A stretch of DNA of 64,000 nt from NCBI GenBank assembly GCA_000146045.2, contig BK006938.2:736001-800000 (forward strand). The letters run 5' to 3'. Made by a program: the position numbers and the translations under genes. Position 1 is the stretch's first letter. Each line of letters starts with the position of its first letter. A model generated the notes under the pieces. That model was given only the letters and a program-made list of their open reading frames with translations, ran no database searches and was not told where the DNA came from. Origin of the DNA: TPA_inf: Saccharomyces (lineage: Eukaryota). This document shows positions 3,998 to 27,874 of the stretch, in pieces.

Positions 3998-4472
3998 TTT
4001 TTGTCGATCCTCTCAGAAAAAGCTGCTCTGTCGGCTTTTTATTTCACCGTTATAAACATAATTGGGAGGCTTGAGTTTTATATTAGGTATTGCTATTGTT
4101 CCTTTTCCAGTGAGATCGAAGCTTAGCCTTTGAAAAAACCAAAATCACTTTTGATCACGTGCCTCGGGTGGAACGCCCAGCAAATATATAAGTATGTCGT
4201 TTATTAATAAAACGGTAATCGGACTCTAAATATTCCTTCTTTCAGCACTCGCTTATGTCGTTATAAAAACTTGATTAATTTGAGTAATTAGCAGTTTTTG
4301 CCGTAGGTATGTTTTTAGAATGTTCTTTTGCACAGTCAGAAGCGTTGTTACCCATAATTTCGTGTTGAGAATATTAAATAATTACGTAAATGATCTGCCA
4401 AATGCTGACAATGATTGAAAAATAATTTTAAAGTTTAAATAATGCAAAAAATTTGTGTAAAAAGAATATGTG

Positions 4473-5600
4473 TCAACCTAAGCCGTTCCATACAAATAAA
4501 TTTCCATCCCATGCAGTTGAAGCCACATATCCTGGCTTTCCCCACAAGCTCCAGTCAGCTCCAAATACGAATTCTGAATGCTGTGTGAAATTGAAAATGG
4601 AACCTTTAGTAGCATCCGTAGAGTTAGTTTTATATGTTTCTTTTGCACCATCGTTGCTGAGATCTCTCCATATTCGACAGGTCATATCATATGAAGCTGA
4701 CATTAAAATATTGGAATGATGAGGGGACCAGGTAACTTTTCTGATTGCCAGCCCGTGCGCATTAGGGATTTCATTGATGCATGATGAATTGTGAAGTTGG
4801 CCGGGCACAGTCCTCTTGATAGTCGCTGATTCATTTTTATTTAGCATCCTAATGTCCCAGATTCTAATGGCATTATCTACACCTCCTGTGGCAACTACAT
4901 AAGGTCTGTATTTGTTGAAATCGCAAGTCAATGCTTCTAGTCCTGAATGCACTAAAAAATTATTCTGATTTTTGCCGGAAGGTAGTCTAATGTCAAATAA
5001 GCTTGCATAAGAATTCCCTGAACAGGATAATACGAGATTTTGGTCGTGGGGCGAGAACTGTGCTTGGTATACACAGTTCCTGTTTTTTGAAATACCTGTA
5101 AAGCTTTTCTTTTTCAATATAATGGCGTTTAATGGATCCACCATTTTGGTAATCTCTAAAGGTCGTGGAGTAAGGGTCATTAAACTTTGCTTTCTTAGAG
5201 GGGACCATATTTTTATAGATCCATCCCATGAACTACTTAAGAAATTCTGCCTGTTGACTAAGTTCCAATTACAACTGAATACTTCTCGTTCATGCTCTTT
5301 AAATATAGCAATAGGAAACTCTTTAAAGGTTGTATCAAACAAGCGTAATGTACCATCGCCCTGTGCAACCAACACTTGGTTTTCATGACTTTCGTTCCAT
5401 GCAAGATCAAATAAACAATCCTGTGTTAAAAAGGAATTAACTTCCACTATTCTACCTGAACGATCAATCTCAAGGATGAACAATTTTCCATTCCCAACCA
5501 GGCCAAAGTTTGAACCAGCAGCTACCGCGAGCCTGTTATCGAAAAAGGGAGAATACTGGACACCGTACCCACTAAAACCTTGCATATGATATCTGAGCAT
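4473..5600 (-). CDS. PEX7: PEX7, the WD40 PTS2 peroxisomal import receptor (375 aa).
   Basis: The track ORF 4473..5771 carries a 57-aa extension beginning at a GTG. The first ATG gives MLRYHMQGFSGYGVQYSPFFDN..., a WD-repeat protein matching PEX7 in length. Confidence 0.85.
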   Translation of the reverse strand: MLRYHMQGFSGYGVQYSPFFDNRLAVAAGSNFGLVGNGKLFILEIDRSGRIVEVNSFLTQDCLFDLAWNESHENQVLVAQGDGTLRLFDTTFKEFPIAIFKEHEREVFSCNWNLVNRQNFLSSSWDGSIKIWSPLRKQSLMTLTPRPLEITKMVDPLNAIILKKKSFTGISKNRNCVYQAQFSPHDQNLVLSCSGNSYASLFDIRLPSGKNQNNFLVHSGLEALTCDFNKYRPYVVATGGVDNAIRIWDIRMLNKNESATIKRTVPGQLHNSSCINEIPNAHGLAIRKVTWSPHHSNILMSASYDMTCRIWRDLSNDGAKETYKTNSTDATKGSIFNFTQHSEFVFGADWSLWGKPGYVASTAWDGNLFVWNGLG

Positions 5601-6041
5601 GTTGTATAAATTATGCAAAAAGTTAGATGATAGTCCGTTAACAATATGAGATCTCTGCACTTTTCGAGCGTCGAATTCCAAATCAGAAAGAAAACGATTT
5701 CGACCTCCGGTAAAAGATTTTATGGTAAGAAAACACAGTTTGTGTTCCACAGTTCTTAAAAGTGTTTTCACCTTTTACTGTTTTGCGAAACGACTTTTCA
5801 GAGGAGGTTATGTCGGTGGTTTAATTTCTCGGCCTTCATATTTACTTGCTGGAGACATGCAAATTTCTGATTAACAATGATTATAGAACTTTAAGTAGAA
5901 GTAAAGAAAAATAAGTATATGATATATATATATAAAGATGCAGATAAAAAAAAGGTAAAAGGAGTAGAAAATAATGTCTGAAAATGGATGACTGCCAATA
6001 GGACATATTTTCATATTAACATACTTCAGAAGCGGTATTGT

Positions 6042-7874
6042 TTATTGTGATGATCGTTGCTCATTGTTATCATTAGGGACGTCGTTATGAATGGTGGTGT
6101 CCGAACTGCTTGAACCTTGGCCTTGAGAGGGATTTTCGTCTGTAGGAGGAAAGGCAGCAGAATTGTTGTTGCGTAGTTCGACGGTAGTAACATCACCATT
6201 TTGATTTCTATAACTGGCAACACCGGAGGAAAACAAGTTATTTCTGTTGTTCTCACCAGTACTTCCACCTCGTTGTTGATCATTGCTATGGTTATTGTCG
6301 TTATTGTTGTCTCTTGAGCCATTCGTAAAATGGCCTGTTAATCGTGAAATATTTTCCAAAAAGGAACTTCCTTGCGTTGTATCAGAGGACGATGAGTCAT
6401 TACGTCCTTGGTTGTGAACAGTTTGTGCTCCGGGTGCTGTTGTTGCAGAGGTATCAGAAGTTCCCCTCTGAGCAACGTTGAATATGTGATCCAAAACGGC
6501 TCTTAGTCTGTTGTGGTGAGGGTCTGTAGCGTCACTACTAGTGTTATTTGAGTTTGGACCGTTCGCTGCTGATGGGCTTGCCGAAGAATCAGAAGCGGAA
6601 GGATTCGGATTTGGACTGTGGAATTGGAACAAAGTCAAAGGGATGGGAACCCAGCGCGGACTTTGATTGTTATTCGAACCACCAGAATTAGAGGGTGGAT
6701 TTTGAGTAGTTGAGCTCGGCCCGTTGACACCGTTTCTATCGCTATCATTAGGCGGTAAACGGACTGGATTGTGTAAAGGTTGGCCGTTTTGAGGCACTAA
6801 AAAAAAGCCTGTTCTTGATAACATCTGTTCGCCAGAACTTGCATTTCCGATAGTGGGAACCGTTGTATTGGACGTGTTTTCGGATGGGGCGGAACTATTT
6901 TCGTTAGTGCTATTCACTGCAGTTGGGTCGTATAAAACTCGTCTAATACGTTCAAAAGCAGCTTCGTTAGCTGCTACTTCATCCGTATCTTGTTGGGCTG
7001 CACGTTGAACACCTACAGATTCGCTGATCTTTTGTCTACAAAGGGGACAAGAATTTTCTAATCTTGACCATTTGTAGATACATTCCCTCCCAAAAATGTG
7101 GCCACAAGGTAACTTGATTGGTGAGTGTTTGTAGCTTGGATTTGTTTCTTCATCATTGAGAGTGCGTTGTTGTTCAGTGAGAGGAATAGAAGGCGGTTCA
7201 ACAACCGTAGCATTTGTAATCGATGGGTTACTGTCATTATCGGCGGTTGTGCGTAGGGGCGCACCTTCATTATCCTTCCTTTTTTTTGTTCCTTCAGATT
7301 CCTCCTCATTTTCAGAATCCCTTTTTCTTTTTGCTTTAGTTGAATCAACTTCATCTTCATATTCGTCATAACATATACTACATAAGGGCCCTTCGGCCTT
7401 GGGTAGATCAGAAACTTGCAGAACGGGGAGCTTATCAAACTCATCCTTTGATATTCCTTTTGGTCTATTTAATAGTCTGTTGAATCTCTCCATTGCAAGC
7501 TGAGCAGCAACAGATATGAAGCTGTTCAAACGGTCTTGTGGAGTAGACGCAGGAACATCACGAAAAGATAAAACAAGAGCACCGTCGGGTTGATGGCCCC
7601 CATTTCCGATGCCAAAGCTGGGCCCAGTACCGTTGGCAATCGTGCTACCGGATGCTGCGCTGTTGTTTTCGTTATTATCATTATTAGATATATTGCTCAA
7701 ATGTGCTAATCTCTCCGGAGTGAAATAGGAATACTGAATGGAAACGGTTATGTTTCTTGTTTGCTCAGCACCACCATTGAGTGGACCGGAAGCTGCATTT
7801 GAATTATTATTATTTTCAGCATTATTTGGTGATGTATTTGTGCCTCTGTTTTGTTCTTGACCACTTTCACTCAT
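6042..7874 (-). CDS. SAN1: SAN1, the nuclear protein-quality-control RING E3 ubiquitin ligase (610 aa).
   Basis: The track ORF begins MFIM with a TTG. The first ATG gives MSESGQEQNRG.... It has a RING-type motif (CSICYDEY...CGHIFGRECIYKWSRLENSCPLCRQ) flanked by long N/S-rich disordered regions. Confidence 0.85.
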   Translation of the reverse strand: MSESGQEQNRGTNTSPNNAENNNNSNAASGPLNGGAEQTRNITVSIQYSYFTPERLAHLSNISNNDNNENNSAASGSTIANGTGPSFGIGNGGHQPDGALVLSFRDVPASTPQDRLNSFISVAAQLAMERFNRLLNRPKGISKDEFDKLPVLQVSDLPKAEGPLCSICYDEYEDEVDSTKAKRKRDSENEEESEGTKKRKDNEGAPLRTTADNDSNPSITNATVVEPPSIPLTEQQRTLNDEETNPSYKHSPIKLPCGHIFGRECIYKWSRLENSCPLCRQKISESVGVQRAAQQDTDEVAANEAAFERIRRVLYDPTAVNSTNENSSAPSENTSNTTVPTIGNASSGEQMLSRTGFFLVPQNGQPLHNPVRLPPNDSDRNGVNGPSSTTQNPPSNSGGSNNNQSPRWVPIPLTLFQFHSPNPNPSASDSSASPSAANGPNSNNTSSDATDPHHNRLRAVLDHIFNVAQRGTSDTSATTAPGAQTVHNQGRNDSSSSDTTQGSSFLENISRLTGHFTNGSRDNNNDNNHSNDQQRGGSTGENNRNNLFSSGVASYRNQNGDVTTVELRNNNSAAFPPTDENPSQGQGSSSSDTTIHNDVPNDNNEQRSSQ

Positions 7875-8310
7875 AATGAACAAAAGCTGAGGTTACAAGA
7901 CTATGAGAGAAAACAAAGGGGAAAAAAGGGAGAAACGAACTATCCTGAAATGCTAAATAATTTCTATCTATAGTAGCTTCACTAGAGGATATATATGATA
8001 AACTATATTTCCTTCAATATATAGTTTTTAGCTATTATTTCATTATTGATTTGGTGATACTAATGCAATGTAGTTATATGTAAAAAATTCTTTCATATTT
8101 TTTGACAATGGCAGATAGAATGTTTTACCCGGCTTTTTGCGTCGAAGTATATAATTGTTGATTAAGAAGCCAGTAACAATAAAAAAGAACAGTATTATTT
8201 ATTTTACGTTAAAAGACGCTTTTCTTTCAAGTAATGTACAATGTTATACCTCCAGATATACATTGCAACTTTTAAAGTCTAGTAAATGCTTATATGGAGG
8301 GAGGGATTTA

Positions 8311-10101
8311 TCAAATGTGATGAAAAATAGCTGTAATGAACCTGGCGAAAAATGGAGGATTCAGATTGTGTCCTCCGTTTTCTTTTCTCGTAGATGAACT
8401 TGAGGTGGGAGATAACATTCCTGTTGAGGAAGTACTTGAGGTAGATTTTGAAATAGAGAGAGCTGTCGTACTTGTTTGGGTTTTTTGGCCTTTGGAGCTG
8501 GAAGAACTTGTTGCCGAATGAGACGTGGAAGCAAAGTACGATATACTGGAGTTAGCTGCCGTGGAAAACATGTTGCCGCCGGAGACAATACTTTCATATG
8601 TAGACCAAGTGCTTGAGTAACCAGGTGCTTTAAGAGCACTTGGAACCGCGCTCTCTATAATCTCAATGTATTCACCGTCGTCGCTGAAGTTAGCCTGAGC
8701 CATTGATATCTCCATATTGTCCAGATCATATACCACGTAAGTATTAGCTAAGAAGTTATCACCCAAAATAATGGTCGGATCTGACTGCGGTGCAATACCT
8801 AGTATACAAATGTTTGAACGACTATCTGTGACTAGCTGAAAATCGCTTAACCAATTAGAAAGATAGAATCCACCAAAATCAAAGATGATGCTACTCTCTT
8901 CTTCCATCTCTTTGATACAATCCATTATGTAGTAACCATATGCAGAAGAGTAAGTAGCTCCGACCTGGTCGGCAAGCATTTTTACCAGCTCAGTTGGCAT
9001 ATACGATATGGTCGTACCTGAATCTAGCAGGACTGGGATCTTTGTAGTGGTTAGGGTTGTCAGATTGTCTTCTTTATCCCCTTTCGACGTACCTAATCCT
9101 TGTAAAGTGACTTGGAATTGAATTGGATCCTTGTAGCCGCGATGCTGCAAAGTATTAATGATGGGAATTGTGTATAGGTCGCCCGCATATTTTCCATGAT
9201 CCACAGCGCCAAACAAAATGGTACCATGTTTCGAATCAGAATCATTTGCGAATAAAGAATAAGCTGTTGATTTTATTACACCCGAATTCTTTAGCACCAT
9301 CGGAAAGTTATTGTAAGTGTAGCTTTTTTGTACAGAGCTGAGAGAAACACCAGAATAAGTTGACTCCAAGCCAGGCAAACCAATACCCAAGACACCAACT
9401 GTTGAGTTTGTTTCGTTTGCTACAGCAAATGATAAACCCGTAATGTTCAAATCGTTCAAGCTCAATTGATCATGGCCCCAGGTACCAGATGCAAAAGTCG
9501 TATCACCATAGGCGATCGAAAATTCTGTATTATTGGAGTTGAATGTAGACGACTTAGAGGTATTAAATGTCCCGTATGTAGCGCAGTCAATTAACTGTGA
9601 TGTAGAAGCTGTACTATCAAAAGTAGCAGTGGCTTCGCTGGTAACTATAGTGGTGTCGTAGCTAATTTCAGTAAACACACTCTCAACCACGCTAGCCAAA
9701 GCATCCTTGTTTACTTGTTTAAAGGATGAGCCAGTGGTATCCTTCTTTTTAGTGGAACAGTATGGGTTGTCTGAACCCGTGACCCATAGATCAGAAGAAC
9801 CAGTGTCGACAAGCACAGTAACTTTTTGAGGAGGGGTGCCAATATCTAATTCCACCGAATAAAAACTGTTTTGATTAGTCAGTTCCACCAGCTCGTAATC
9901 ATCATCTCTTGTCATCAAACGCGTTCTACCTTTTGTATCATCCAAAGCGTTTTCAAATGAACTGCCGTATTTCTTCTGAAAATTCATTTTGACATAGACT
10001 TCATTACTTGGTAAGGATGGAAAATCTGTAACACCGGCATCTACTATTGAGCTGCAGACAAGTAATGCATCTACGACAAATGTGAGGACAGATAATTTCA
10101 T
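8311..10101 (-). CDS. MKC7: MKC7 / yapsin-2, a GPI-anchored aspartyl protease (596 aa).
   Basis: Taking the first ATG, the protein starts MKLSVLTFVVDALLVCSSIVDA (signal peptide). It has DTGSSD and DSGTT aspartyl-protease active-site motifs, a Ser/Thr-rich stalk and a hydrophobic C-terminal GPI signal. The track ORF carries a 35-aa TTG-initiated extension. Confidence 0.85.
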   Translation of the reverse strand: MKLSVLTFVVDALLVCSSIVDAGVTDFPSLPSNEVYVKMNFQKKYGSSFENALDDTKGRTRLMTRDDDYELVELTNQNSFYSVELDIGTPPQKVTVLVDTGSSDLWVTGSDNPYCSTKKKDTTGSSFKQVNKDALASVVESVFTEISYDTTIVTSEATATFDSTASTSQLIDCATYGTFNTSKSSTFNSNNTEFSIAYGDTTFASGTWGHDQLSLNDLNITGLSFAVANETNSTVGVLGIGLPGLESTYSGVSLSSVQKSYTYNNFPMVLKNSGVIKSTAYSLFANDSDSKHGTILFGAVDHGKYAGDLYTIPIINTLQHRGYKDPIQFQVTLQGLGTSKGDKEDNLTTLTTTKIPVLLDSGTTISYMPTELVKMLADQVGATYSSAYGYYIMDCIKEMEEESSIIFDFGGFYLSNWLSDFQLVTDSRSNICILGIAPQSDPTIILGDNFLANTYVVYDLDNMEISMAQANFSDDGEYIEIIESAVPSALKAPGYSSTWSTYESIVSGGNMFSTAANSSISYFASTSHSATSSSSSKGQKTQTSTTALSISKSTSSTSSTGMLSPTSSSSTRKENGGHNLNPPFFARFITAIFHHI

Positions 10102-17674: not shown

Positions 17675-19066
17675 TCACCATAACAACATTTTTCTAGGGT
17701 CTTCAATCAACTCTTTAACAGTCTTCAAGAAGGTAACAGCTTCTCTACCATCTAGCAATCTATGATCATAAGTCAAAGCCAAGTACATCATTGGTCTTGA
17801 GACAATTTGTCCATTAACAGTGACAGGTCTCTCTTTGACACCATGCAAGCCTAGGACGGCTGTTTGTGGTGAATTGATGATAGGAGTACCGTATAATGAA
17901 CCAAAAACACCACCATTAGATATGGTGAAAGTACCACCCGTCATATCTTCTAGGGTTAATTTGCCATCACGCGCTTTATGACTCAAGCGAACAATTTCGT
18001 TCTCAATATCTAAAACACTCAATGACTCTGCATTACGAACGACGGGGGTAACCAAACCCTTTGGAGTGGCCACAGCAACAGAAATATCTGTGTAATCACG
18101 ATAAACAATCTGGTCACCTTCAATGGCACCATTGACGGCTGGAATATCCTTGGCGGCCAAGGTACATGCTTTGGAGAAAAGACCCATGAATCCGAATTTA
18201 GTACCGGTCTTCTTAATAATCTCATCTTTATACAGTTTCCTCATTTCCATCAAAGCTGACATGTCAACTTCGTTGAATGTGGTTAAGGAAGCAGCAGTGT
18301 TTTGAGACTCTTTTAATCTTTCGGCAATCCTCAATCTCATACGGTTCATTTTGACCCTGGTTTCTGTACGTGGAAATGGTGTGAAAGAGTTAGAGGCTAC
18401 TGGGGGTTCCTGCGCCTTAGAGACGGTCTTCTTTGGTTGATCAGCCTTTTTTGGTTCTGTAACTTCTTTCTTTGGAGCGGCTTCTTTCTTTGGAGCAGCT
18501 TCTTTCTTTGAAGCCGTTTCCTCACTTGAGTTTTCCCTTGCGGCGACACCTTGCGATGGCTCCGCTTGTTCGGTAGGCTCTGGCTTAGATTCTCCAGAAC
18601 CCTCAGCAGGTGCTTCACCAGGCTCGACCTGAGCTAACTCCTCACCAACAGTGACAGTGTCCTCTGGTTTGAAATTTAGCTTCGTAACAGTACCTGATAC
18701 TGGCGAATTGACCTCAATATCAATTTTATCGGTCTCAATAGTGGCCAACAGCTCGTCCTCCTTAATAAAATCACCAACGTTTTTAGTATATTCCTTTAAA
18801 GAGCCTTCAGTCAGGGACTCTGCCATCGGAGGAACTTCAATAGAGGTAGATTTAAAACGATTGCTAGTTATGGAGAACGGATTCGCCGCAACTGAAATTT
18901 TCTTGCCGGATAAATATATTGAACCTAAGGATTCGACCTTGTTAGCTTGTTTGAACAAACTTGTAGAAGCATGTCTCTTGACGAAAGAAGCAGCCATAAC
19001 ATTTCTAGCCACTTTAGATTTTACTAAGGATTTGGCAGCTGCAGTACGCGTCGCTCTGGAAAGCAT
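17675..19066 (-). CDS. KGD2: KGD2, the dihydrolipoyl transsuccinylase (E2) of mitochondrial 2-oxoglutarate dehydrogenase (463 aa).
   Basis: It has an N-terminal presequence ([12 protein letters not shown]...) and a lipoyl domain with the ETDKIDIEV lipoyl-lysine motif. An Ala/Pro/Lys-rich linker carries PKKEAA repeats. The C-terminal 2-oxoacid dehydrogenase acyltransferase domain includes the catalytic DHRLLDG motif. Confidence 0.9.
18440..18520 (-). repeat. Three tandem copies of an 18-bp unit encoding (KKEAAP)3 in the KGD2 inter-domain linker.
   Basis: The plus strand shows cttctttctttggagcgg / cttctttctttggagcag / cttctttctttgaagccg. Confidence 0.8.
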
Positions 19067-19430: not shown

Positions 19431-19627
19431 CTGCAAAAAAAGGGTTGTTAATATCGTCTTTGACGGAGATGCGGGTGGCTGGAATTGTTTTGTTTATTAT
19501 TCCCCAAGAGAGAAGAGACAAGAAGTAGTAATGACGATGGAACAAAGATCGGTTCTAATAGGACCACAGGGTTGAATAGAGACGAGTAAAGACGCAACGG
19601 TCAAGGCTTTCCACGAGACGTTCGAAT

Positions 19628-22600
19628 ATGTCCCACAACAACAGGCATAAAAAGAATAACGATAAAGACAGCTCAGCAGGGCAGTATGCAAATAGCATTG
19701 ACAATTCATTAAGCCAGGAAAGCGTCTCAACGAACGGCGTAACAAGGATGGCTAACTTAAAGGCTGATGAATGCGGCAGTGGTGATGAAGGAGATAAAAC
19801 AAAGCGGTTTTCGATTTCAAGTATTTTGAGTAAAAGAGAGACAAAAGACGTGCTTCCGGAATTTGCAGGCAGTAGTTCCCACAATGGAGTACTCACGGCG
19901 AATTCATCAAAGGATATGAACTTTACTTTGGAACTAAGCGAGAATTTGTTGGTTGAGTGTAGGAAATTGCAATCCTCTAATGAAGCTAAAAATGAGCAAA
20001 TCAAGTCTCTCAAGCAAATTAAAGAGTCATTAAGTGACAAGATTGAGGAGCTCACTAACCAAAAAAAGTCCTTCATGAAAGAGTTGGATTCAACTAAAGA
20101 TTTAAACTGGGATTTAGAATCTAAATTAACAAACTTGAGCATGGAATGTAGGCAATTAAAAGAATTGAAGAAAAAGACTGAAAAATCTTGGAATGATGAA
20201 AAAGAAAGCCTGAAACTTCTGAAAACAGATTTGGAAATTTTAACATTAACAAAAAATGGCATGGAAAATGATCTTAGCTCTCAAAAACTTCATTACGATA
20301 AAGAGATTAGTGAATTAAAGGAAAGGATTTTAGACTTAAATAATGAAAACGACAGATTACTTATTAGTGTTTCTGATCTAACAAGTGAAATTAATTCCTT
20401 ACAGAGCAATAGAACTGAAAGAATAAAAATTCAAAAGCAACTTGATGACGCCAAAGCATCTATTTCTTCGTTAAAAAGAAAAGTACAAAAGAAGTATTAT
20501 CAAAAACAGCATACTTCCGATACTACAGTAACATCTGATCCTGATTCTGAGGGGACCACTAGTGAAGAAGACATTTTTGATATAGTGATCGAAATTGACC
20601 ACATGATTGAAACAGGCCCCTCTGTCGAGGACATTTCTGAAGATCTTGTCAAGAAATACTCAGAAAAAAACAATATGATATTGTTATCGAATGATTCATA
20701 TAAAAACTTACTACAAAAAAGTGAAAGTGCATCCAAACCAAAAGACGATGAATTAATGACCAAAGAGGTGGCTGAAAACCTGAATATGATCGCGTTACCA
20801 AATGATGACAATTACAGCAAAAAAGAGTTTTCGTTAGAATCTCATATTAAATATTTAGAAGCTTCTGGCTATAAAGTTCTTCCTCTAGAGGAGTTTGAGA
20901 ACCTAAACGAATCCCTATCAAATCCATCATATAACTATCTCAAGGAAAAACTTCAGGCTTTGAAAAAGATACCCATCGATCAAAGTACGTTTAACTTGTT
21001 AAAAGAGCCTACTATTGATTTTTTACTGCCTTTAACATCCAAAATTGATTGCCTGATAATACCTACCAAAGATTATAATGACCTTTTTGAGAGTGTCAAG
21101 AATCCATCAATTGAACAAATGAAAAAATGCCTGGAAGCAAAGAACGACTTACAATCGAATATTTGTAAATGGCTGGAGGAGAGAAACGGCTGTAAATGGC
21201 TAAGTAATGATCTGTATTTTTCAATGGTTAATAAGATAGAAACACCTTCGAAACAATACCTGTCAGATAAGGCAAAAGAATACGACCAAGTGCTGATTGA
21301 TACTAAAGCCTTAGAAGGTTTAAAGAACCCAACGATAGACTTTCTAAGAGAAAAAGCTTCTGCATCAGATTATTTATTACTCAAAAAAGAAGACTACGTG
21401 AGCCCATCACTGGAATACCTAGTTGAACATGCCAAGGCCACCAATCACCATTTACTATCGGATAGTGCATACGAAGACCTAGTCAAGTGCAAGGAGAATC
21501 CTGATATGGAATTCTTGAAGGAGAAGTCTGCCAAACTAGGCCACACTGTGGTATCCAACGAGGCATATTCTGAATTGGAAAAGAAACTAGAACAACCATC
21601 ACTGGAATACCTAGTTGAACATGCCAAGGCGACCAATCACCATTTACTATCGGATAGTGCATACGAAGACCTAGTCAAGTGCAAGGAGAATCCTGATATG
21701 GAATTCTTGAAGGAGAAGTCTGCCAAACTAGGCCATACTGTGGTATCCAACGAGGCATATTCTGAATTGCAACGCAAATACTCAGAATTGGAGAAGGAAG
21801 TAGAACAACCATCTCTAGCATACTTAGTTGAACACGCCAAGGCTACCGATCACCATTTACTATCGGATAGTGCATACGAAGACCTAGTCAAGTGCAAGGA
21901 GAATCCTGATGTGGAATTCTTGAAGGAGAAGTCTGCTAAACTAGGCCATACTGTGGTATCTAGCGAGGAATATTCTGAATTGCAACGCAAATACTCAGAA
22001 TTGGAGAAGGAAGTAGAACAACCATCACTAGCATACCTAGTCGAACACGCCAAGGCTACCGATCACCATTTACTATCGGATAGTGCATACGAAGAACTAG
22101 TCAAGTGCAAGGAGAATCCTGATATGGAATTCTTGAAGGAGAAGTCTGCCAAACTAGGCCACACTGTGGTATCCAACGAGGCATATTCTGAATTGGAAAA
22201 GAAACTAGAACAACCATCACTAGCATACCTAGTCGAACATGCCAAGGCTACCGATCACCATCTGCTATCGGATAGTGCATACGAAGACCTAGTCAAGTGC
22301 AAGGAAAATTCTGATGTAGAATTCTTGAAGGAGAAGTCTGCTAAACTAGGCCATACTGTGGTATCCAACGAAGCATATTCTGAATTGGAAAAGAAACTAG
22401 AACAACCATCACTAGCATACCTAGTCGAACATGCCAAGGCTACCGATCACCATCTGCTATCGGATAGTGCATACGAAGACCTAGTCAAGTGCAAGGAGAA
22501 TCCTGATATGGAATTCTTGAAGGAGAAGTCTGCCAAACTAGGCCACACTGTGGTATCCAACGAGGCATATTCTGAATTGGAAAAGAAACTAGAACAACCA

Positions 22601-25600
22601 TCACTGGAATACCTAGTTGAACATGCCAAGGCCACCAATCACCATTTACTATCGGATAGTGCATACGAAGACCTAGTCAAGTGCAAGGAGAATCCTGATA
22701 TGGAATTCTTGAAGGAGAAGTCTGCCAAACTAGGCCACACTGTGGTATCCAACGAGGCATATTCTGAATTGGAAAAGAAACTAGAACAACCATCACTGGA
22801 ATACCTAGTTGAACATGCCAAGGCCACCAATCACCATCTGCTATCGGATAGTGCATACGAAGAACTAGTCAAGTGCAAGGAAAATCCTGATGTAGAATTC
22901 TTGAAGGAGAAGTCTGCTAAACTAGGCCATACTGTGGTATCCAACGAAGCATATTCTGAATTGGAAAAGAAACTAGAACAACCATCACTGGAATACCTAG
23001 TTGAACATGCCAAGGCCACCAATCACCATCTGCTATCGGATAGTGCATACGAAGAACTAGTCAAGTGCAAGGAAAATCCTGATGTAGAATTCTTGAAGGA
23101 GAAGTCTGCTAAACTAGGCCATACTGTGGTATCCAACGAAGCATATTCTGAATTGGAAAAGAAACTAGAACAACCATCACTAGCATACCTAGTCGAACAT
23201 GCCAAGGCTACCGATCACCATCTGCTATCGGATAGTGCATACGAAGACCTAGTCAAGTGCAAGGAAAATCCTGATGTAGAATTCTTGAAGGAGAAGTCTG
23301 CTAAACTAGGCCATACTGTGGTATCCAACGAAGCATATTCTGAATTGGAAAAGAAACTAGAACAACCATCACTAGCATACCTAGTCGAACATGCCAAGGC
23401 TACCGATCACCATCTGCTATCGGATAGTGCATACGAAGACCTAGTCAAGTGCAAGGAGAATCCTGATATGGAATTCTTGAAGGAGAAGTCTGCCAAACTA
23501 GGCCACACTGTGGTATCCAACGAGGCATATTCTGAATTGGAAAAGAAACTAGAACAACCATCACTGGAATACCTAGTTGAACATGCCAAGGCCACCAATC
23601 ACCATCTGCTATCGGATAGTGCATACGAAGACCTAGTCAAGTGCAAGGAGAATCCTGATATGGAATTCTTGAAGGAGAAGTCTGCTAAACTGGGCCATAC
23701 TGTGGTATCCAACAAGGAATATTCTGAATTGGAAAAGAAACTAGAACAACCATCACTGGAATACTTAGTCAAACATGCCGAACAAATACAATCAAAAATT
23801 ATATCGATCTCGGACTTCAACACCTTAGCTAATCCATCTATGGAAGATATGGCTTCAAAATTGCAAAAGTTAGAATACCAGATTGTTTCGAACGATGAGT
23901 ACATTGCATTGAAAAATACGATGGAAAAGCCGGACGTTGAGTTACTAAGATCCAAGTTGAAAGGTTACCATATAATTGATACAACAACGTACAATGAGCT
24001 AGTCAGCAATTTCAATTCTCCTACGTTGAAGTTTATTGAAGAGAAAGCCAAAAGCAAAGGTTATAGATTAATAGAACCTAATGAATACCTTGACTTGAAT
24101 AGGATAGCCACTACACCTTCTAAAGAAGAGATTGATAACTTCTGCAAACAAATTGGGTGTTACGCTTTGGACTCTAAAGAATATGAAAGACTAAAAAATT
24201 CTCTGGAGAATCCCTCCAAGAAATTTATAGAAGAAAATGCCGCATTACTTGATCTTGTGCTAGTGGACAAAACGGAGTACCAAGCAATGAAAGATAATGC
24301 AAGCAACAAGAAATCACTTATTCCTTCAACCAAGGCACTTGATTTCGTTACAATGCCTGCCCCACAGCTTGCTTCTGCAGAGAAGTCATCACTACAAAAA
24401 AGAACTTTATCTGATATTGAAAATGAGTTAAAGGCCTTAGGCTACGTCGCAATTCGTAAAGAAAACCTGCCAAACCTAGAGAAACCAATTGTTGACAATG
24501 CCTCCAAAAATGATGTCTTGAACCTATGTTCGAAATTCAGTTTAGTACCATTGTCTACTGAAGAATATGATAATATGAGAAAGGAACACACTAAAATCTT
24601 AAATATTCTCGGTGATCCATCTATTGATTTCCTGAAGGAAAAATGTGAAAAATATCAAATGCTCATAATTAGTAAACATGATTACGAAGAAAAGCAAGAA
24701 GCCATTGAAAATCCAGGCTACGAATTTATTTTAGAAAAAGCATCAGCACTGGGATATGAATTAGTTAGCGAGGTTGAGCTGGATCGCATGAAACAAATGA
24801 TTGATTCACCAGATATTGACTACATGCAAGAAAAGGCTGCCCGCAATGAAATGGTGTTGTTGAGGAACGAGGAGAAGGAAGCATTGCAAAAGAAAATAGA
24901 ATATCCCTCTTTAACATTTTTAATCGAAAAGGCTGCTGGAATGAACAAAATACTTGTTGACCAAATCGAGTATGATGAAACTATAAGAAAATGCAATCAT
25001 CCCACTCGGATGGAGCTAGAGGAATCCTGTCATCACTTGAACTTGGTTTTGCTCGACCAAAACGAGTACTCAACTCTAAGAGAACCTTTGGAAAATCGAA
25101 ATGTTGAAGACTTAATTAACACCTTGAGCAAACTAAACTACATTGCAATTCCTAATACTATCTACCAAGATTTAATTGGAAAGTATGAGAATCCAAACTT
25201 TGATTATCTAAAGGATTCTTTGAACAAAATGGATTACGTCGCAATCTCTAGACAAGATTATGAATTGATGGTTGCTAAATACGAAAAGCCACAACTGGAT
25301 TATTTGAAAATTTCTTCAGAGAAAATCGACCACATTGTAGTGCCTCTGTCTGAGTACAATTTAATGGTTACAAATTATAGAAATCCCAGCTTGAGCTACT
25401 TAAAAGAGAAAGCCGTTTTGAATAATCATATTTTAATAAAAGAAGATGACTATAAAAACATTTTAGCAGTATCAGAACATCCGACAGTGATCCACCTCTC
25501 CGAAAAGGCATCTTTATTAAATAAAGTCTTGGTAGACAAGGATGATTTTGCGACCATGTCACGCTCGATTGAGAAACCAACTATCGATTTCTTATCCACT

Positions 25601-27874
25601 AAGGCGCTATCAATGGGGAAAATACTAGTTAATGAATCTACGCATAAAAGAAACGAGAAACTATTATCTGAACCAGATTCTGAATTTTTGACAATGAAAG
25701 CCAAGGAGCAAGGGCTAATTATCATTTCAGAAAAGGAATATTCTGAACTGCGGGATCAAATAGATCGTCCTAGCCTAGATGTTTTGAAAGAAAAGGCCGC
25801 CATTTTTGATAGCATCATAGTAGAAAACATAGAATACCAACAACTGGTAAACACTACAAGTCCCTGCCCTCCCATTACTTATGAAGATTTGAAAGTATAT
25901 GCCCACCAATTCGGTATGGAATTATGCCTCCAAAAACCCAACAAACTTTCTGGAGCTGAGCGTGCAGAGCGCATTGATGAACAATCAATAAATACGACCA
26001 GCAGTAACTCGACCACAACATCGAGCATGTTTACAGATGCACTAGATGATAATATCGAAGAGCTTAATCGTGTCGAATTGCAGAATAATGAAGATTATAC
26101 TGACATAATCTCGAAATCATCCACAGTGAAAGATGCTACCATTTTCATTCCCGCCTATGAAAACATCAAGAATTCTGCTGAAAAATTAGGCTACAAATTA
26201 GTTCCGTTCGAAAAATCAAATATCAATCTGAAAAACATTGAAGCTCCATTATTTTCGAAGGACAACGATGACACTAGCGTTGCCAGTAGCATAGATCTTG
26301 ATCACTTATCTAGAAAAGCAGAAAAATATGGTATGACCCTCATTTCTGATCAGGAATTTGAAGAATATCATATACTAAAAGATAACGCGGTTAATCTGAA
26401 TGGTGGCATGGAAGAAATGAATAATCCCTTGTCAGAAAATCAAAACTTAGCAGCAAAAACCACAAACACAGCGCAAGAAGGTGCCTTCCAAAACACCGTT
26501 CCCCACAATGATATGGACAACGAAGAAGTCGAATATGGGCCGGATGATCCAACATTCACAGTAAGGCAACTCAAGAAACCCGCTGGCGATCGTAATTTGA
26601 TTTTGACTAGTAGGGAGAAAACACTGTTATCAAGAGATGATAATATAATGAGTCAAAATGAGGCGGTTTATGGTGACGATATATCTGATAGCTTTGTAGA
26701 TGAAAGCCAAGAAATCAAAAATGATGTAGACATTATTAAAACTCAAGCTATGAAATATGGTATGTTGTGTATTCCTGAAAGTAATTTTGTGGGTGCATCA
26801 TATGCAAGTGCTCAAGATATGAGCGATATAGTTGTGCTTTCCGCGTCCTATTACCATAATCTAATGTCACCTGAAGACATGAAATGGAACTGTGTTAGTA
26901 ATGAAGAATTACAAGCGGAAGTTAAAAAGCGTGGGCTCCAGATTGCACTAACAACAAAGGAAGATAAGAAAGGTCAAGCCACGGCATCCAAACATGAGTA
27001 TGTGTCGCATAAGCTAAACAATAAAACATCTACTGTGTCCACAAAGTCTGGAGCAAAAAAGGGACTTGCAGAAGCAGCAGCAACAACTGCTTATGAAGAT
27101 TCCGAAAGTCATCCACAAATAGAAGAGCAGTCTCATCGTACTAATCATCATAAGCACCATAAACGTCAACAGAGTCTGAATTCTAATTCAACCTCAAAAA
27201 CCACACATTCATCGAGGAATACGCCAGCATCTAGACGAGATATAGTAGCATCATTTATGTCACGTGCAGGATCTGCCAGTAGGACGGCATCTTTACAAAC
27301 TTTAGCATCATTGAACGAACCAAGCATAATACCCGCGTTAACCCAAACCGTCATTGGGGAATATTTGTTTAAGTATTATCCACGCTTGGGACCTTTTGGA
27401 TTCGAATCACGTCATGAAAGATTCTTCTGGGTTCATCCATATACCTTAACTTTGTACTGGTCCGCTTCTAATCCCATCCTAGAGAATCCTGCCAATACCA
27501 AAACAAAAGGTGTTGCCATTCTAGGAGTAGAAAGTGTCACAGACCCAAACCCATATCCAACAGGATTGTATCACAAAAGTATTGTTGTTACCACAGAAAC
27601 TAGGACTATTAAGTTTACTTGTCCTACAAGGCAAAGACACAATATTTGGTATAATTCATTACGTTATTTACTTCAAAGGAACATGCAAGGGATAAGTTTA
27701 GAGGACATCGCTGATGATCCAACAGATAATATGTATTCAGGAAAGATTTTCCCATTGCCCGGCGAAAATACAAAGAGCTCCAGTAAAAGACTTAGCGCAT
27801 CGAGAAGGTCCGTATCTACAAGGTCTCTAAGACATAGAGTACCACAAAGCCGATCATTTGGCAATTTACGATAG
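19628..27874 (+). CDS. NUM1: NUM1, the cortical dynein/mitochondria anchor (2748 aa). It has an N-terminal coiled coil, a 12x64-aa tandem repeat array and a C-terminal PH domain.
   Basis: 2748-aa ORF with 12 near-identical 64-aa repeats (PSLEYLVEHAKATNHHLLSDSAYEDLVKCKENPDMEFLKEKSAKLGHTVVSNEAYSELEKKLEQ). The C-terminal PH-like region reads ...IGEYLFKYYPRLGPFGFESRHERFFWVHPYTLTLYWSASNP.... Confidence 0.95.
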   Translation: MSHNNRHKKNNDKDSSAGQYANSIDNSLSQESVSTNGVTRMANLKADECGSGDEGDKTKRFSISSILSKRETKDVLPEFAGSSSHNGVLTANSSKDMNFTLELSENLLVECRKLQSSNEAKNEQIKSLKQIKESLSDKIEELTNQKKSFMKELDSTKDLNWDLESKLTNLSMECRQLKELKKKTEKSWNDEKESLKLLKTDLEILTLTKNGMENDLSSQKLHYDKEISELKERILDLNNENDRLLISVSDLTSEINSLQSNRTERIKIQKQLDDAKASISSLKRKVQKKYYQKQHTSDTTVTSDPDSEGTTSEEDIFDIVIEIDHMIETGPSVEDISEDLVKKYSEKNNMILLSNDSYKNLLQKSESASKPKDDELMTKEVAENLNMIALPNDDNYSKKEFSLESHIKYLEASGYKVLPLEEFENLNESLSNPSYNYLKEKLQALKKIPIDQSTFNLLKEPTIDFLLPLTSKIDCLIIPTKDYNDLFESVKNPSIEQMKKCLEAKNDLQSNICKWLEERNGCKWLSNDLYFSMVNKIETPSKQYLSDKAKEYDQVLIDTKALEGLKNPTIDFLREKASASDYLLLKKEDYVSPSLEYLVEHAKATNHHLLSDSAYEDLVKCKENPDMEFLKEKSAKLGHTVVSNEAYSELEKKLEQPSLEYLVEHAKATNHHLLSDSAYEDLVKCKENPDMEFLKEKSAKLGHTVVSNEAYSELQRKYSELEKEVEQPSLAYLVEHAKATDHHLLSDSAYEDLVKCKENPDVEFLKEKSAKLGHTVVSSEEYSELQRKYSELEKEVEQPSLAYLVEHAKATDHHLLSDSAYEELVKCKENPDMEFLKEKSAKLGHTVVSNEAYSELEKKLEQPSLAYLVEHAKATDHHLLSDSAYEDLVKCKENSDVEFLKEKSAKLGHTVVSNEAYSELEKKLEQPSLAYLVEHAKATDHHLLSDSAYEDLVKCKENPDMEFLKEKSAKLGHTVVSNEAYSELEKKLEQPSLEYLVEHAKATNHHLLSDSAYEDLVKCKENPDMEFLKEKSAKLGHTVVSNEAYSELEKKLEQPSLEYLVEHAKATNHHLLSDSAYEELVKCKENPDVEFLKEKSAKLGHTVVSNEAYSELEKKLEQPSLEYLVEHAKATNHHLLSDSAYEELVKCKENPDVEFLKEKSAKLGHTVVSNEAYSELEKKLEQPSLAYLVEHAKATDHHLLSDSAYEDLVKCKENPDVEFLKEKSAKLGHTVVSNEAYSELEKKLEQPSLAYLVEHAKATDHHLLSDSAYEDLVKCKENPDMEFLKEKSAKLGHTVVSNEAYSELEKKLEQPSLEYLVEHAKATNHHLLSDSAYEDLVKCKENPDMEFLKEKSAKLGHTVVSNKEYSELEKKLEQPSLEYLVKHAEQIQSKIISISDFNTLANPSMEDMASKLQKLEYQIVSNDEYIALKNTMEKPDVELLRSKLKGYHIIDTTTYNELVSNFNSPTLKFIEEKAKSKGYRLIEPNEYLDLNRIATTPSKEEIDNFCKQIGCYALDSKEYERLKNSLENPSKKFIEENAALLDLVLVDKTEYQAMKDNASNKKSLIPSTKALDFVTMPAPQLASAEKSSLQKRTLSDIENELKALGYVAIRKENLPNLEKPIVDNASKNDVLNLCSKFSLVPLSTEEYDNMRKEHTKILNILGDPSIDFLKEKCEKYQMLIISKHDYEEKQEAIENPGYEFILEKASALGYELVSEVELDRMKQMIDSPDIDYMQEKAARNEMVLLRNEEKEALQKKIEYPSLTFLIEKAAGMNKILVDQIEYDETIRKCNHPTRMELEESCHHLNLVLLDQNEYSTLREPLENRNVEDLINTLSKLNYIAIPNTIYQDLIGKYENPNFDYLKDSLNKMDYVAISRQDYELMVAKYEKPQLDYLKISSEKIDHIVVPLSEYNLMVTNYRNPSLSYLKEKAVLNNHILIKEDDYKNILAVSEHPTVIHLSEKASLLNKVLVDKDDFATMSRSIEKPTIDFLSTKALSMGKILVNESTHKRNEKLLSEPDSEFLTMKAKEQGLIIISEKEYSELRDQIDRPSLDVLKEKAAIFDSIIVENIEYQQLVNTTSPCPPITYEDLKVYAHQFGMELCLQKPNKLSGAERAERIDEQSINTTSSNSTTTSSMFTDALDDNIEELNRVELQNNEDYTDIISKSSTVKDATIFIPAYENIKNSAEKLGYKLVPFEKSNINLKNIEAPLFSKDNDDTSVASSIDLDHLSRKAEKYGMTLISDQEFEEYHILKDNAVNLNGGMEEMNNPLSENQNLAAKTTNTAQEGAFQNTVPHNDMDNEEVEYGPDDPTFTVRQLKKPAGDRNLILTSREKTLLSRDDNIMSQNEAVYGDDISDSFVDESQEIKNDVDIIKTQAMKYGMLCIPESNFVGASYASAQDMSDIVVLSASYYHNLMSPEDMKWNCVSNEELQAEVKKRGLQIALTTKEDKKGQATASKHEYVSHKLNNKTSTVSTKSGAKKGLAEAAATTAYEDSESHPQIEEQSHRTNHHKHHKRQQSLNSNSTSKTTHSSRNTPASRRDIVASFMSRAGSASRTASLQTLASLNEPSIIPALTQTVIGEYLFKYYPRLGPFGFESRHERFFWVHPYTLTLYWSASNPILENPANTKTKGVAILGVESVTDPNPYPTGLYHKSIVVTTETRTIKFTCPTRQRHNIWYNSLRYLLQRNMQGISLEDIADDPTDNMYSGKIFPLPGENTKSSSKRLSASRRSVSTRSLRHRVPQSRSFGNLR
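21404..23770 (+). repeat. NUM1 internal tandem array of 12 units (ten of 192 bp, two of 213 bp) plus a degenerate 13th.
   Basis: The periodicity is seen directly. The antisense ORFs in 21445..23598 tile with the same 192/213-bp period, each run split by a single stop, and near-identical proteins. Units differ at a few codons (E/A, N/D, M/V) and by a 21-bp insertion (LQRKYSE) in units 2 and 3. Confidence 0.95.

What the first reader, a model, noticed from the sequence alone, without database searches (positions are those of the whole stretch)
20850..25850. NUM1 combines a homogenised core array with a much longer ancient degenerate array of 32-aa half-units
Each perfect 64-aa NUM1 repeat is made of two related half-units: PSLEYLVEHAKATNHHLLSDSAYEDLVKCKE and NPDMEFLKEKSAKLGHTVVSNEAYSELEKKLEQ. 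Both have the pattern P-x-[LIM]-[DE]-[FY]-L-x-E-K-[AS]...hydrophobic...EY. Reading the flanking protein, the same motif recurs in degenerate form many times on both sides of the perfect array. Examples are NPTIDFLREKASASDYLLLKKEDY, DPSIDFLKEKCEKYQMLIISKHDYEE, NPGYEFILEKASALGYELVSEVELD, YPSLTFLIEKAAGMNKILVDQIEYDE, KPQLDYLKISSEKIDHIVVPLSEYNL, NPSLSYLKEKAVLNNHILIKEDDYKN, KPTIDFLSTKALSMGKILVNESTHKR and RPSLDVLKEKAAIFDSIIVENIEYQQ. A large part of NUM1 therefore looks like one old repeat array. Only its centre has been recently homogenised and is near-identical at DNA level, while the flanks have diverged. This would be a textbook picture of concerted evolution confined to an array core.
Basis: partly seen in the sequence, partly recalled or inferred. 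Interest (0 to 1): 0.55.

Follow-up and report, generated by a model that had tools for sequence, protein, structure and literature searches.

The report
Old 32-residue module array in NUM1
About 1,900 residues in the middle of the yeast dynein and mitochondria anchor Num1 are one ancient array of about 54 small 32-residue modules, and the well-known 12 x 64-residue repeat is a young 12-fold copy of just two of them.

Summary
The ORF at 19628-27874 (+) is S. cerevisiae NUM1. A profile built only from the core half-units scores the C flank at 100 bits, against at most 10.9 bits in 500 shuffles. A profile built only from four other yeasts finds 8 N-flank units, 24 core units and 22 C-flank units. 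Thirteen C-flank units sit at exactly 32-residue spacing.

The module array is old. It occurs in Num1 orthologues from Saccharomycetaceae to Metschnikowia, Lodderomyces and Wickerhamomyces, with 5-70 units each. Most of these arrays show no near-identical units.

With the core collapsed to one A-B pair, NUM1 aligns unit for unit with Naumovozyma and Nakaseomyces Num1, straight through the junction. The core is therefore a lineage-specific amplification of one ancestral pair. It is not a homogenised stretch of old units. Exchange between copies and copy-number change then act inside the new array.

AlphaFold2 predicts helix, 7-residue loop, helix for each unit, with uncertain packing between units. 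One yeast lineage has a coiled coil in place of the array. A length-setting spacer is the most likely function, but this is inferred, not shown.

This is a modest novelty: an undescribed repeat family in a well-studied protein.

The parts
19628..27874 (+). NUM1 ORF, 2748 aa plus stop codon
   Evidence: ORF list and translation. Mcp5_PH domain at aa 2567-2684. The C flank is 99.2% identical to Num1p of S. cerevisiae YJM195.
19910..20536 (+). [quoted passage not shown] It lies outside the array.
   Evidence: Coordinates come from PMC6297085. No unit hits fall in aa 1-320. This region matches the N-termini of orthologues.
20627..21400 (+). N-flank degenerate units (aa 334-591). There are 7-8 units of 25-37 aa, plus one unit at aa 492-538 that carries a 15-aa insertion.
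   Evidence: Cross-validated HMM score of 36.4 bits against 7.6 in shuffles. The orthologue-only HMM finds 8 units at 75 bits against 5.9. The insertion unit shows in alignment A2. Unit starts are listed.
21401..23746 (+). Young core: 12 copies of a 64-aa A-B double unit (24 half-units, aa 592-1373). This is the 192-bp megasatellite.
   Evidence: TRF gives 21404-23779, 12.2 copies, 94% matches. Mean DNA identity is 94.8%, Ks 0.176, Ka/Ks 0.14. It corresponds to a single A-B pair in relatives.
21770..21790 (+). 7-aa insertion (QRKYSEL) in helix 2 of core unit 2
   Evidence: Units 2 and 3 have a 213-bp period. Sequences are shown.
21983..22003 (+). 7-aa insertion (QRKYSEL) in helix 2 of core unit 3
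23747..23929 (+). Units C1-C2, an older diverged A-B-like pair. The first ~30 nt still match the core (the '13th partial copy').
   Evidence: The DNA alignment to a core unit shows near identity for ~30 nt, then 59% overall. C1 is A-like and C2 is B-like.
23747..26386 (+). C-flank degenerate units (aa 1374-2253), about 22 units
   Evidence: Core-only HMM score of 100 bits against 10.9. Orthologue-only HMM score of 307 bits with 22 units. Unit table.
24614..25861 (+). Block of 13 diverged units at exactly 32-aa spacing with no indels (aa 1663-2078)
   Evidence: Unit spacing. Scores 136.8 bits with the core+N HMM, against 5.5 in shuffles. The first four units (aa 1663-1790) gave the AF2 model with pLDDT 88.9.
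27326..27679 (+). C-terminal PH domain (Mcp5_PH). It lies outside the array.
   Evidence: Pfam PF12814, E = 1.3e-45.

Best explanation
**What it is.** The central ~1,900 residues of Num1 (aa 334-2253) are a tandem array of about 54 copies of one small module. The consensus is PSLEHLKEKAKKLGLVVVPKEEYEEL followed by a short helical tail. Each module is predicted to form a 10-residue helix, a 7-residue hydrophobic extended loop and a 12-residue helix.

**How old it is.** The array predates the split between Saccharomycetaceae and the Debaryomycetaceae, Metschnikowiaceae and Wickerhamomyces lineages. In most species it evolves by slow divergence of individual units that keep their positions.

**Where the core came from.** In the S. 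cerevisiae lineage, one adjacent pair of units (A and B) was duplicated. The likely cause is unequal exchange between the similar 5' ends of unit A and the next A-like unit, C1, which lies 192 bp away. The pair then expanded to 12 copies. This 192-bp array now behaves as a megasatellite. Copies exchange sequence and copy number varies, while purifying selection keeps the protein sequence.

**What it does (inferred, not shown).** The array is a length-setting, segmented spacer between the membrane-bound PH domain and the N-terminal coiled coil that binds mitochondria and dynein. Adding or losing modules tunes its reach.
For: **The array is real.**

**It is ancient and specific to Num1.**
- A window-only 4-unit profile finds 163 proteins among 1.84 billion cluster representatives.
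- Of the 87 that are at least 1500 aa long, 85 carry the Num1-type PH domain and hold 5-70 units. The dominant spacing is 32 aa.
- Named examples include Lachancea, Eremothecium, Zygosaccharomyces, Naumovozyma, Nakaseomyces, Kluyveromyces, Saccharomycodes, Wickerhamomyces, Lodderomyces, Metschnikowia and Candida orthopsilosis.
- The other 70 fungal PH-domain loci, all with lower-ranked PH matches, have no units.
- Three orthologue loci from metagenomes with 28-89 units (L005, L007, L009) have no DNA-level tandem repeats. A fourth (L004) has only weak 96- and 192-bp ones.

**Units keep their positions, and relatives have a single A-B pair.**
- Collapsed NUM1 gives one collinear HSP through the array: 557 bits against 88 bits for the next one in P0032.
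- The MAFFT alignment shows N6, N7, A, B and C1-C6 each with one partner.
- The unit-level alignment beats a shuffled-order null at z = 4.7, 3.2, 4.6 and 4.0.

**The core is young and copies exchange sequence.**
- Identity is 94.8%. Units 8 and 9 are identical, and so are units 6 and 11.
- Sites 14 and 106 show all four allele combinations. Ks is 0.176.
- Two other S. cerevisiae sequences carry 5 and 4 copies.
- NUM1 is listed as a structural-variant hotspot (PMC12711572).

**Fold.** The AF2 model of degenerate units has pLDDT 88.9 and the model of core units 82.0. Both give the same pattern, H4-13, loop, H21-32, with pTM 0.35-0.38.

**Spacer role.**
- One orthologue (L003) has a heptad-periodic coiled coil between vestigial units. 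Another (L010) has coiled coil punctuated by single units.
- Unit length varies by changes in helix 2: 28, 32, 39 and 49 aa.
- Deleting the TR domain leaves clustering and nuclear segregation intact but reduces spindle penetration (PMC6297085).
Against: - No Saccharomyces sensu stricto orthologue could be retrieved. The timing of the amplification, and whether sister species share it, are therefore unknown.
- The 4- and 5-copy alleles come from short-read assemblies and could be collapsed.
- Positional orthology with more distant yeasts is not above the null.
- The fold rests on AF2 with a 6-row alignment of paralogues. The low pTM leaves inter-unit geometry open.
- Nothing here tests the spacer function directly.
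- Strong conservation of particular residues (P1, K9, A10, E22, Y23, L26) and Ka/Ks of 0.14 would also fit a ligand-binding repeat.
Confidence: 0.8

Rival explanations
1. About 24 pre-existing, diverged 32-aa units in the middle of the old array were overwritten by gene conversion or unequal crossing-over. The core is then a homogenised part of the ancestral array, and the flanks are edges that escaped.
For: - Copies in the core do exchange sequence (four-gamete site pairs and identical non-adjacent units).
- C1-C2 look like a partly diverged edge copy of A-B, with 59% DNA identity.
- Larger orthologues with 56-89 units exist, so a longer ancestral array is conceivable.
Against: - Collapsed NUM1 aligns unit for unit through the junction with four relatives that have one A and one B.
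- Those relatives have 31-41 units, close to S. cerevisiae's 30 degenerate units plus 2.
- The core period is 64 aa, but the old array has no 64-aa super-period.
- A and B remain only 41% identical in DNA, so no conversion has occurred between 96-bp neighbours.
- The 3' boundary is sharp.
Confidence: 0.1
2. The modules are primarily binding sites rather than spacer elements. The array would be a multivalent platform or molecular ruler that engages a periodic or oligomeric partner, such as the microtubule lattice, dynein/dynactin, or an ER or mitochondrial factor. Copy number would then set valency.
For: - The same residues are conserved in hundreds of units across distant yeasts (consensus).
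- Unit length is strict at 32 aa across 13 diverged units.
- Ka/Ks is 0.14 in the core.
- Isolated single modules are retained inside coiled coil in L010, and at both ends of the coiled coil in L003.
- Num1 co-precipitates with alpha-tubulin Tub3p (PMC2199608). The region responsible was not mapped.
Against: - CC plus PH (or CAAX) constructs without the array are sufficient for clustering and spindle movement. TR deletion has only a subtle phenotype.
- Unit number ranges from 5 to 70 between species, up to 89 in one metagenome locus. One lineage replaces nearly all units with coiled coil.
- No partner is known.
- In a 26-residue fold, most conserved residues could simply be needed for folding.
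Confidence: 0.15
3. The flanking matches are coincidental low-complexity or compositional similarity in a K/E/L-rich protein, and no real array exists outside the 12 copies.
For: - The region is rich in K, E, D and L.
- Some outlying units score weakly, for example aa 373, 401, 1433, 1625 and 2175 at 3-6 bits.
Against: - Composition-preserving shuffles never exceed 11 bits, against 100-307 bits observed.
- Spacing is exactly 32 aa.
- An independent profile from other species recovers the same units.
- The coiled-coil and tail regions of the same protein give no hits.
Confidence: 0.01

Closest known systems
Num1 'TR domain' / NUM1 192-bp megasatellite, described as twelve or thirteen 64-residue tandem repeats
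   Same: The core at 21401-23746 is exactly this feature. It has a 192-bp period and near-identical copies. Length polymorphism and structural-variant hotspot status are reported in the literature.
   Different: The papers I could read treat it as a 64-residue repeat of unknown function. They place the domain at aa 592-1776. They do not describe three things: the 32-aa module, the array extending over aa 334-2253, or its conservation in other yeasts. One paper states that the repeat region is poorly conserved.
Nebulin-type modular giant proteins: ~35-residue helical modules with a more uniform, copy-number-variable central block (my own knowledge, not tested here)
   Same: Both have many short helical modules of fixed length filling most of a giant protein. 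Both have an old diverged array with a younger, more uniform block. Both show length variation by whole modules.
   Different: Nebulin modules bind actin and act as a thin-filament ruler or stabiliser. No filament partner is shown for the Num1 modules. There is no sequence relationship. The Num1 young block is a simple 2-module amplification.
Central coiled-coil rod of NuMA, and of the Num1 orthologue in locus L003
   Same: It occupies the same position between a dynein-binding N-terminal part and a membrane-targeting C-terminal part. Its role is proposed but unproven. In L003 a heptad-periodic coiled coil occupies the place of the module array.
   Different: The S. cerevisiae array has a 32-residue periodicity, not a heptad one. 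It is predicted to be a chain of helix-loop-helix modules rather than a continuous coiled coil.
SAP / HeH / LEM helix-extended-helix motifs (~35 aa)
   Same: The size is similar, and the predicted order is the same: helix, extended hydrophobic or Gly-containing loop, helix.

Membership tests
Num1/Mcp5 cortical anchor family | C-terminal Mcp5-type PH domain | tested here: met
   PF12814, E = 1.3e-45, at aa 2567-2684.
Num1/Mcp5 cortical anchor family | N-terminal coiled-coil domain homologous to that of orthologues | tested here: met
   aa ~57-303 align to the N-termini of orthologues.
NUM1 192-bp megasatellite (TR domain) | Head-to-tail 192-bp units, about 12 near-identical copies | tested here: met
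   TRF finds 12.2 copies at 94% matches. Mean identity is 94.8%.
NUM1 192-bp megasatellite (TR domain) | Copy-number polymorphism among strains | tested here: inconclusive
   There are 12 copies in the window, 5 in metagenome contig L002 and 4 in YJM195 Num1p. The last two come from short-read assemblies and may be collapsed. The literature supports polymorphism.
Concerted evolution by homogenisation of pre-existing units | Sequence exchange among copies | tested here: met
   Sites 14 and 106 show all four combinations, and non-adjacent units 6 and 11 are identical.
Concerted evolution by homogenisation of pre-existing units | The homogenised block replaces an equal number of ancestral diverged units | tested here: not met
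   Relatives have one A and one B between the N7 and C1 orthologues. Collapsed NUM1 aligns collinearly with them.
Concerted evolution by homogenisation of pre-existing units | Copies within a species are more alike than orthologous copies between sister species | not testable with these tools
   No Saccharomyces sensu stricto NUM1 sequence could be retrieved.
SAP / HeH / LEM motif | Significant sequence-profile match | tested here: not met
   Pfam scans of NUM1, the flanks and a consensus dimer gave no SAP, HeH or LEM hit at E <= 10.
SAP / HeH / LEM motif | Helix-extended-helix fold | tested here: inconclusive
Coiled coil | Heptad periodicity | tested here: not met
   Autocorrelation of the S. 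cerevisiae array peaks at lags 32, 64, 96 and 128, not at 7 or 14. L003 and L010 do peak at 7, 14 and 21.
EF-hand / calmodulin-like helix-loop-helix | Structural or sequence match to EF-hand proteins | tested here: not met
   Calmodulin chains top the Foldseek list only at E = 3-10 with TM 0.16-0.20. There is no Pfam EF-hand hit.

The most novel reading that the evidence does not exclude
The 26-residue conserved module is not just filler. It may be a recognition element or a dimer 'knuckle' that recurs along the Num1 rod, isolated within coiled coil in some yeasts and packed head to tail in others. The array would then bind a periodic partner (for example the microtubule lattice) or zip two Num1 chains together in register. 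Module number would set valency or force capacity, and lineage-specific amplifications (S. cerevisiae, L. thermotolerans and others) would be adaptive tuning.
Probability: 0.15. Interest if true: 0.7.

Novelty: new member of a known kind. Interest (0 to 1): 0.45.

Why it matters
**For the Num1 field.** Num1 is the cortical anchor for dynein and mitochondria in budding yeast. About 70% of its length has no assigned structure or function. The papers I could read describe only a 64-residue repeat and call it poorly conserved.

The whole central region turns out to be one conserved module family:
- It has a predicted fold.
- Its unit number varies from 5 to 70 among catalogued orthologues, and up to 89 in one metagenome locus.
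- It can be replaced by coiled coil.

This gives a concrete, testable hypothesis: the array is a spacer that sets reach. It also gives natural reagents, namely alleles with 4, 5 and 12 core copies and orthologues of very different length.

**For repeat evolution.** The case separates two processes that are often conflated. The old array evolves by divergence, with units keeping their positions. The uniform block arose by recent amplification of two units, and the same thing happened independently in several lineages.

This is an incremental advance, not a new kind of system.

Tried and rejected
- **First homologue search.** A word-indexed search with the C flank (aa 1375-2106) returned nothing. 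The PH-containing C-terminal region (aa 2301-2748) returned only fragments and distant PH proteins. No sensu stricto orthologue was obtainable.
- **Alignment A1.** An alignment of overlapping 4-unit windows was staggered by MAFFT and not used.
- **Pfam noise.** The hits Aminotran_1_2 (E = 2e-13) and HTH_3 (E = 3e-9) have no single passing stretch. They arise from summing weak hits over 24 near-identical units. They vanish when the flanks or the consensus are scanned.
- **Distant positional orthology.** Matching S. cerevisiae units to L004, L005, L007 and L009 did not beat a shuffled-order null.
- **The 25-aa landmark.** The idea that the 25-aa unit N7 is a conserved landmark also present in L004 and L009 was only weakly supported. 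The placement ranked 2nd of 84 for L009 and 13th of 72 for L004. I dropped it in favour of the closer relatives.
- **Synteny.** Neighbouring genes did not help to place the metagenome loci.
Full report
**1. What is at the locus**

The region lies inside a single ORF at 19628-27874 (+), which encodes 2748 aa.
- The protein carries a C-terminal Mcp5_PH domain (PF12814, E = 1.3e-45, aa 2567-2684).
- Its C flank is 99.2% identical to 'Num1p [Saccharomyces cerevisiae YJM195]'. The gene is therefore S. cerevisiae NUM1.
- Tandem Repeats Finder reports a 192-bp array of 12.2 copies at 21404-23779, with 94% matches.

**2. The core is near-identical, not perfect**

- Units 2 and 3 carry a 21-bp insertion (QRKYSEL).
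- After removing it, the 12 units average 94.8% DNA identity (range 90-100%).
- Mean Ks is 0.176, mean Ka is 0.025 and Ka/Ks is 0.14. The protein sequence of the copies is therefore under purifying selection.
- Units 8 and 9 are identical, and so are the non-adjacent units 6 and 11. Variable sites form mosaics: sites 14 and 106 show all four combinations. This points to exchange among copies.
- Each 64-aa unit is two related halves, A and B, that are 34% identical in protein and 41% in DNA.

**3. The flanking motifs are real**

- An HMM built only from the core half-units scores the C flank at 100 bits, against a maximum of 10.9 bits in 500 composition-preserving shuffles. The N flank is marginal with that model, at 10.6 against 9.1.
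- Cross-validation removes the circularity. A core+C model scores the N flank at 36.4 against 7.6. A core+N model scores the C flank at 142.2 against 8.4. Within the C flank, aa 1663-2080 alone scores 136.8.
- An HMM whose parameters come only from 253 units of four other yeasts gives the results below. It finds nothing in aa 1-320 or aa 2261-2748.

| Region | Units found | Score (bits) | Best shuffle (bits) |
|---|---|---|---|
| aa 321-591 (N flank) | 8 | 75 | 5.9 |
| Core | 24 | 501 | 10.4 |
| aa 1375-2260 (C flank) | 22 | 307 | 7.8 |

- Thirteen consecutive diverged units (aa 1663-2078) sit at exactly 32-residue spacing with no indels.
- BLOSUM autocorrelation of the C flank peaks at lag 32 (0.36, against a median of -0.77 and sd of 0.18). 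Lag 64 is lower, so there is no A/B super-period outside the core.
- Flank units are 21% identical in protein. In DNA they are 39% identical in register and 29% out of register.

The array spans aa 334-2253 (nt 20627-26386), slightly wider than the reported coordinates. It holds about 30 degenerate units against 24 core half-units.

**4. The module is ancient and specific to Num1**

*Metagenome loci.*
- A metagenome scan anchored on the PH region returned 80 fungal loci. Units occur only in the ten with the best-ranked PH matches.
- Loci L004, L005 and L009 carry 77-89 units, and L007 carries 33-34.
- L005, L007 and L009 have no DNA-level tandem repeats. L004 has only weak 96- and 192-bp ones.

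*Protein cluster representatives.*
- A profile made only from window sequences (A2) was scored against 1.84 billion cluster representatives. It found 163 proteins at E <= 1e-3 and 87 at E <= 1e-30, mostly 2,000-3,700 aa long.
- Of the 87 that are at least 1500 aa long, 85 have the Num1-type PH domain. They hold 5-70 units, and the dominant spacing is 32 aa.
- Source names include Lachancea thermotolerans, Eremothecium sinecaudum, Zygosaccharomyces rouxii and Z. bailii, Naumovozyma dairenensis, Nakaseomyces bracarensis, Kluyveromyces dobzhanskii, Saccharomycodes ludwigii, Wickerhamomyces mucosus, Lodderomyces beijingensis, Metschnikowia bicuspidata and Candida orthopsilosis.

The array therefore predates the divergence of these budding-yeast families. 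No Pfam family covers the module.

**5. The core is an amplification, not a homogenised stretch**

I collapsed the core to a single A-B pair, which gives 2030 aa and 32 units.
- This collapsed protein aligns with its closest available relatives in one collinear HSP, from the coiled-coil domain through the array. For P0032 the score is 557 bits, against 88 bits for the next HSP. N. dairenensis gives a single HSP across the array.
- The multiple alignment shows N6, N7, A, B and C1-C6 each with one partner, and no gap at the junction.
- A unit-level alignment beats a shuffled-order null at z = 4.7, 3.2, 4.6 and 4.0. In N. dairenensis, the S. cerevisiae units N7, A, B, C1 and C2 match consecutive units at aa 523, 555, 586, 618 and 650.
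- Those relatives have 31-41 units depending on the cut-off. That is roughly the S. cerevisiae count without the extra copies.
- The 3' boundary is sharp. About 30 nt of the '13th copy' still match the core, then identity falls, to 59% over C1-C2 as a whole.

This pattern fits an initial unequal exchange between the similar 5' ends of A and the A-like unit C1, 192 bp apart, followed by expansion. That step is inference.

Two other S. cerevisiae sequences carry 5 copies (L002) and 4 copies (YJM195) with 99% identical flanks. They may be collapsed assemblies. However, NUM1 is listed among structural-variant hotspots in 1,086 near-T2T genomes (PMC12711572), and a 1993 paper is titled 'The NUM1 yeast gene: length polymorphism...' (reference list of PMC2199608).

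Independent young amplifications exist elsewhere:

| Protein | Near-identical units | Unit length |
|---|---|---|
| L. thermotolerans (P0001) | 18 | 32 or 39 aa |
| P0062 | 11 | 39 aa (the last one 53 aa) |
| P0022 | 8 | 49 aa |
| P0014 | 6 | 32 aa |

Of the 88 long proteins analysed, 76 have no near-identical units.

**6. Structure**

- AlphaFold2 on four degenerate units, with a 6-row alignment of in-register paralogous windows, gives pLDDT 88.9 and pTM 0.38.
- The same run on core A-B-A-B gives pLDDT 82.0 and pTM 0.35.
- Both models show the same pattern per unit: helix at residues 4-13, a 7-residue loop carrying the conserved hydrophobic triplet, helix at residues 21-32, then a 3-residue linker.
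- Local confidence is high. The relative orientation of units is not defined.
- Length variants (28, 32, 39 and 49 aa, and the 7-aa insert in S. cerevisiae units 2 and 3) all change the length of helix 2.

**7. Function (inferred)**

- The literature reports that CC plus a membrane anchor suffices for clustering and spindle movement. Deleting the TR domain leaves these intact but lowers bud-neck crossing and spindle penetration. The domain's role is 'unidentified' (PMC6297085; PMC6589697).
- Two orthologue loci are informative.
  - L003 (PH 66% identical) has a central region that is heptad-periodic coiled coil, with two vestigial modules at each end.
  - L010 (PH 47% identical) has coiled coil punctuated by 6-7 isolated modules.
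- Taken together, three observations fit a length-setting spacer between the PH domain at the plasma membrane and the N-terminal coiled coil: the module array and coiled coil are interchangeable, unit number ranges 14-fold among catalogued orthologues, and the deletion phenotype is mild.
- The strong residue conservation and the retention of isolated modules keep a binding-platform role open.

**8. Verdict**

- 'One old array' is confirmed and extended.
- 'Homogenised centre' is replaced by 'recent amplification of one A-B pair, with concerted evolution inside the new array'.
- The 12 x 64-aa repeat and its polymorphism are already known. The 32-aa module family, its extent, its age and its predicted fold were not found in Pfam or in the literature I could search.
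- This is a new repeat family of an ordinary kind. Its main use is to frame experiments on Num1's central region.

Noticed in passing
L003 (metagenome contig JXWR01004375.1), open frame 2-9313: This Num1 orthologue (PH domain 66% identical) has about 2,400 aa of heptad-periodic coiled coil where S. cerevisiae has the module array. Only two vestigial modules remain at each end. L010 has coiled coil punctuated by 6-7 isolated modules.
   Followed up: partly
P0001 (Lachancea thermotolerans Num1p) aa 990-1671; P0062 aa 670-1112; P0022 aa 1585-2049; P0014 aa 982-1173: These are independent, lineage-specific amplifications of near-identical units with periods of 32, 39 and 49 aa. L. thermotolerans has a 7-aa insertion variant in helix 2, analogous to the QRKYSEL insert in S. 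cerevisiae units 2 and 3.
   Followed up: partly
L002 (contig OCVT010000397.1) 345-7313, and P0002 (AJU59376.1): These S. cerevisiae NUM1 sequences carry only 5 and 4 core copies (2307 and 2229 aa), with flanks 99% identical to the window. They are either real copy-number alleles or collapsed short-read assemblies.
   Followed up: partly
window 19555-20262 (-): A 235-aa ORF lies antisense to the 5' end of NUM1 and overlaps its start. It is probably a spurious ORF opened by the composition of the coding strand.
   Followed up: no
window 18463-18514: An 18-bp tandem repeat (2.9 copies, 94% matches) lies inside the neighbouring 463-aa ORF at 17675-19066 (-).
   Followed up: no
window 19628-27871, Pfam scan: Whole-protein Pfam E-values for Aminotran_1_2 (2e-13) and HTH_3 (3e-9) are artefacts. 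They come from adding weak hits over 24 near-identical half-units, and no single stretch passes. This is a caution for automated annotation of repeat proteins.
   Followed up: yes
L004 3759-4201 and 5955-6362: This orthologue has its own weakly similar DNA repeats of 96- and 192-bp period (69-84% matches). This is an intermediate-age local duplication within the array.
   Followed up: partly
P0155 (Candida albicans WO-1, 744 aa): The protein annotated with the Num1-type PH domain in C. albicans is only 744 aa, while C. orthopsilosis Num1 is 2104 aa with 34 units. This is either a truncated gene model or a real loss of the array.
   Followed up: no
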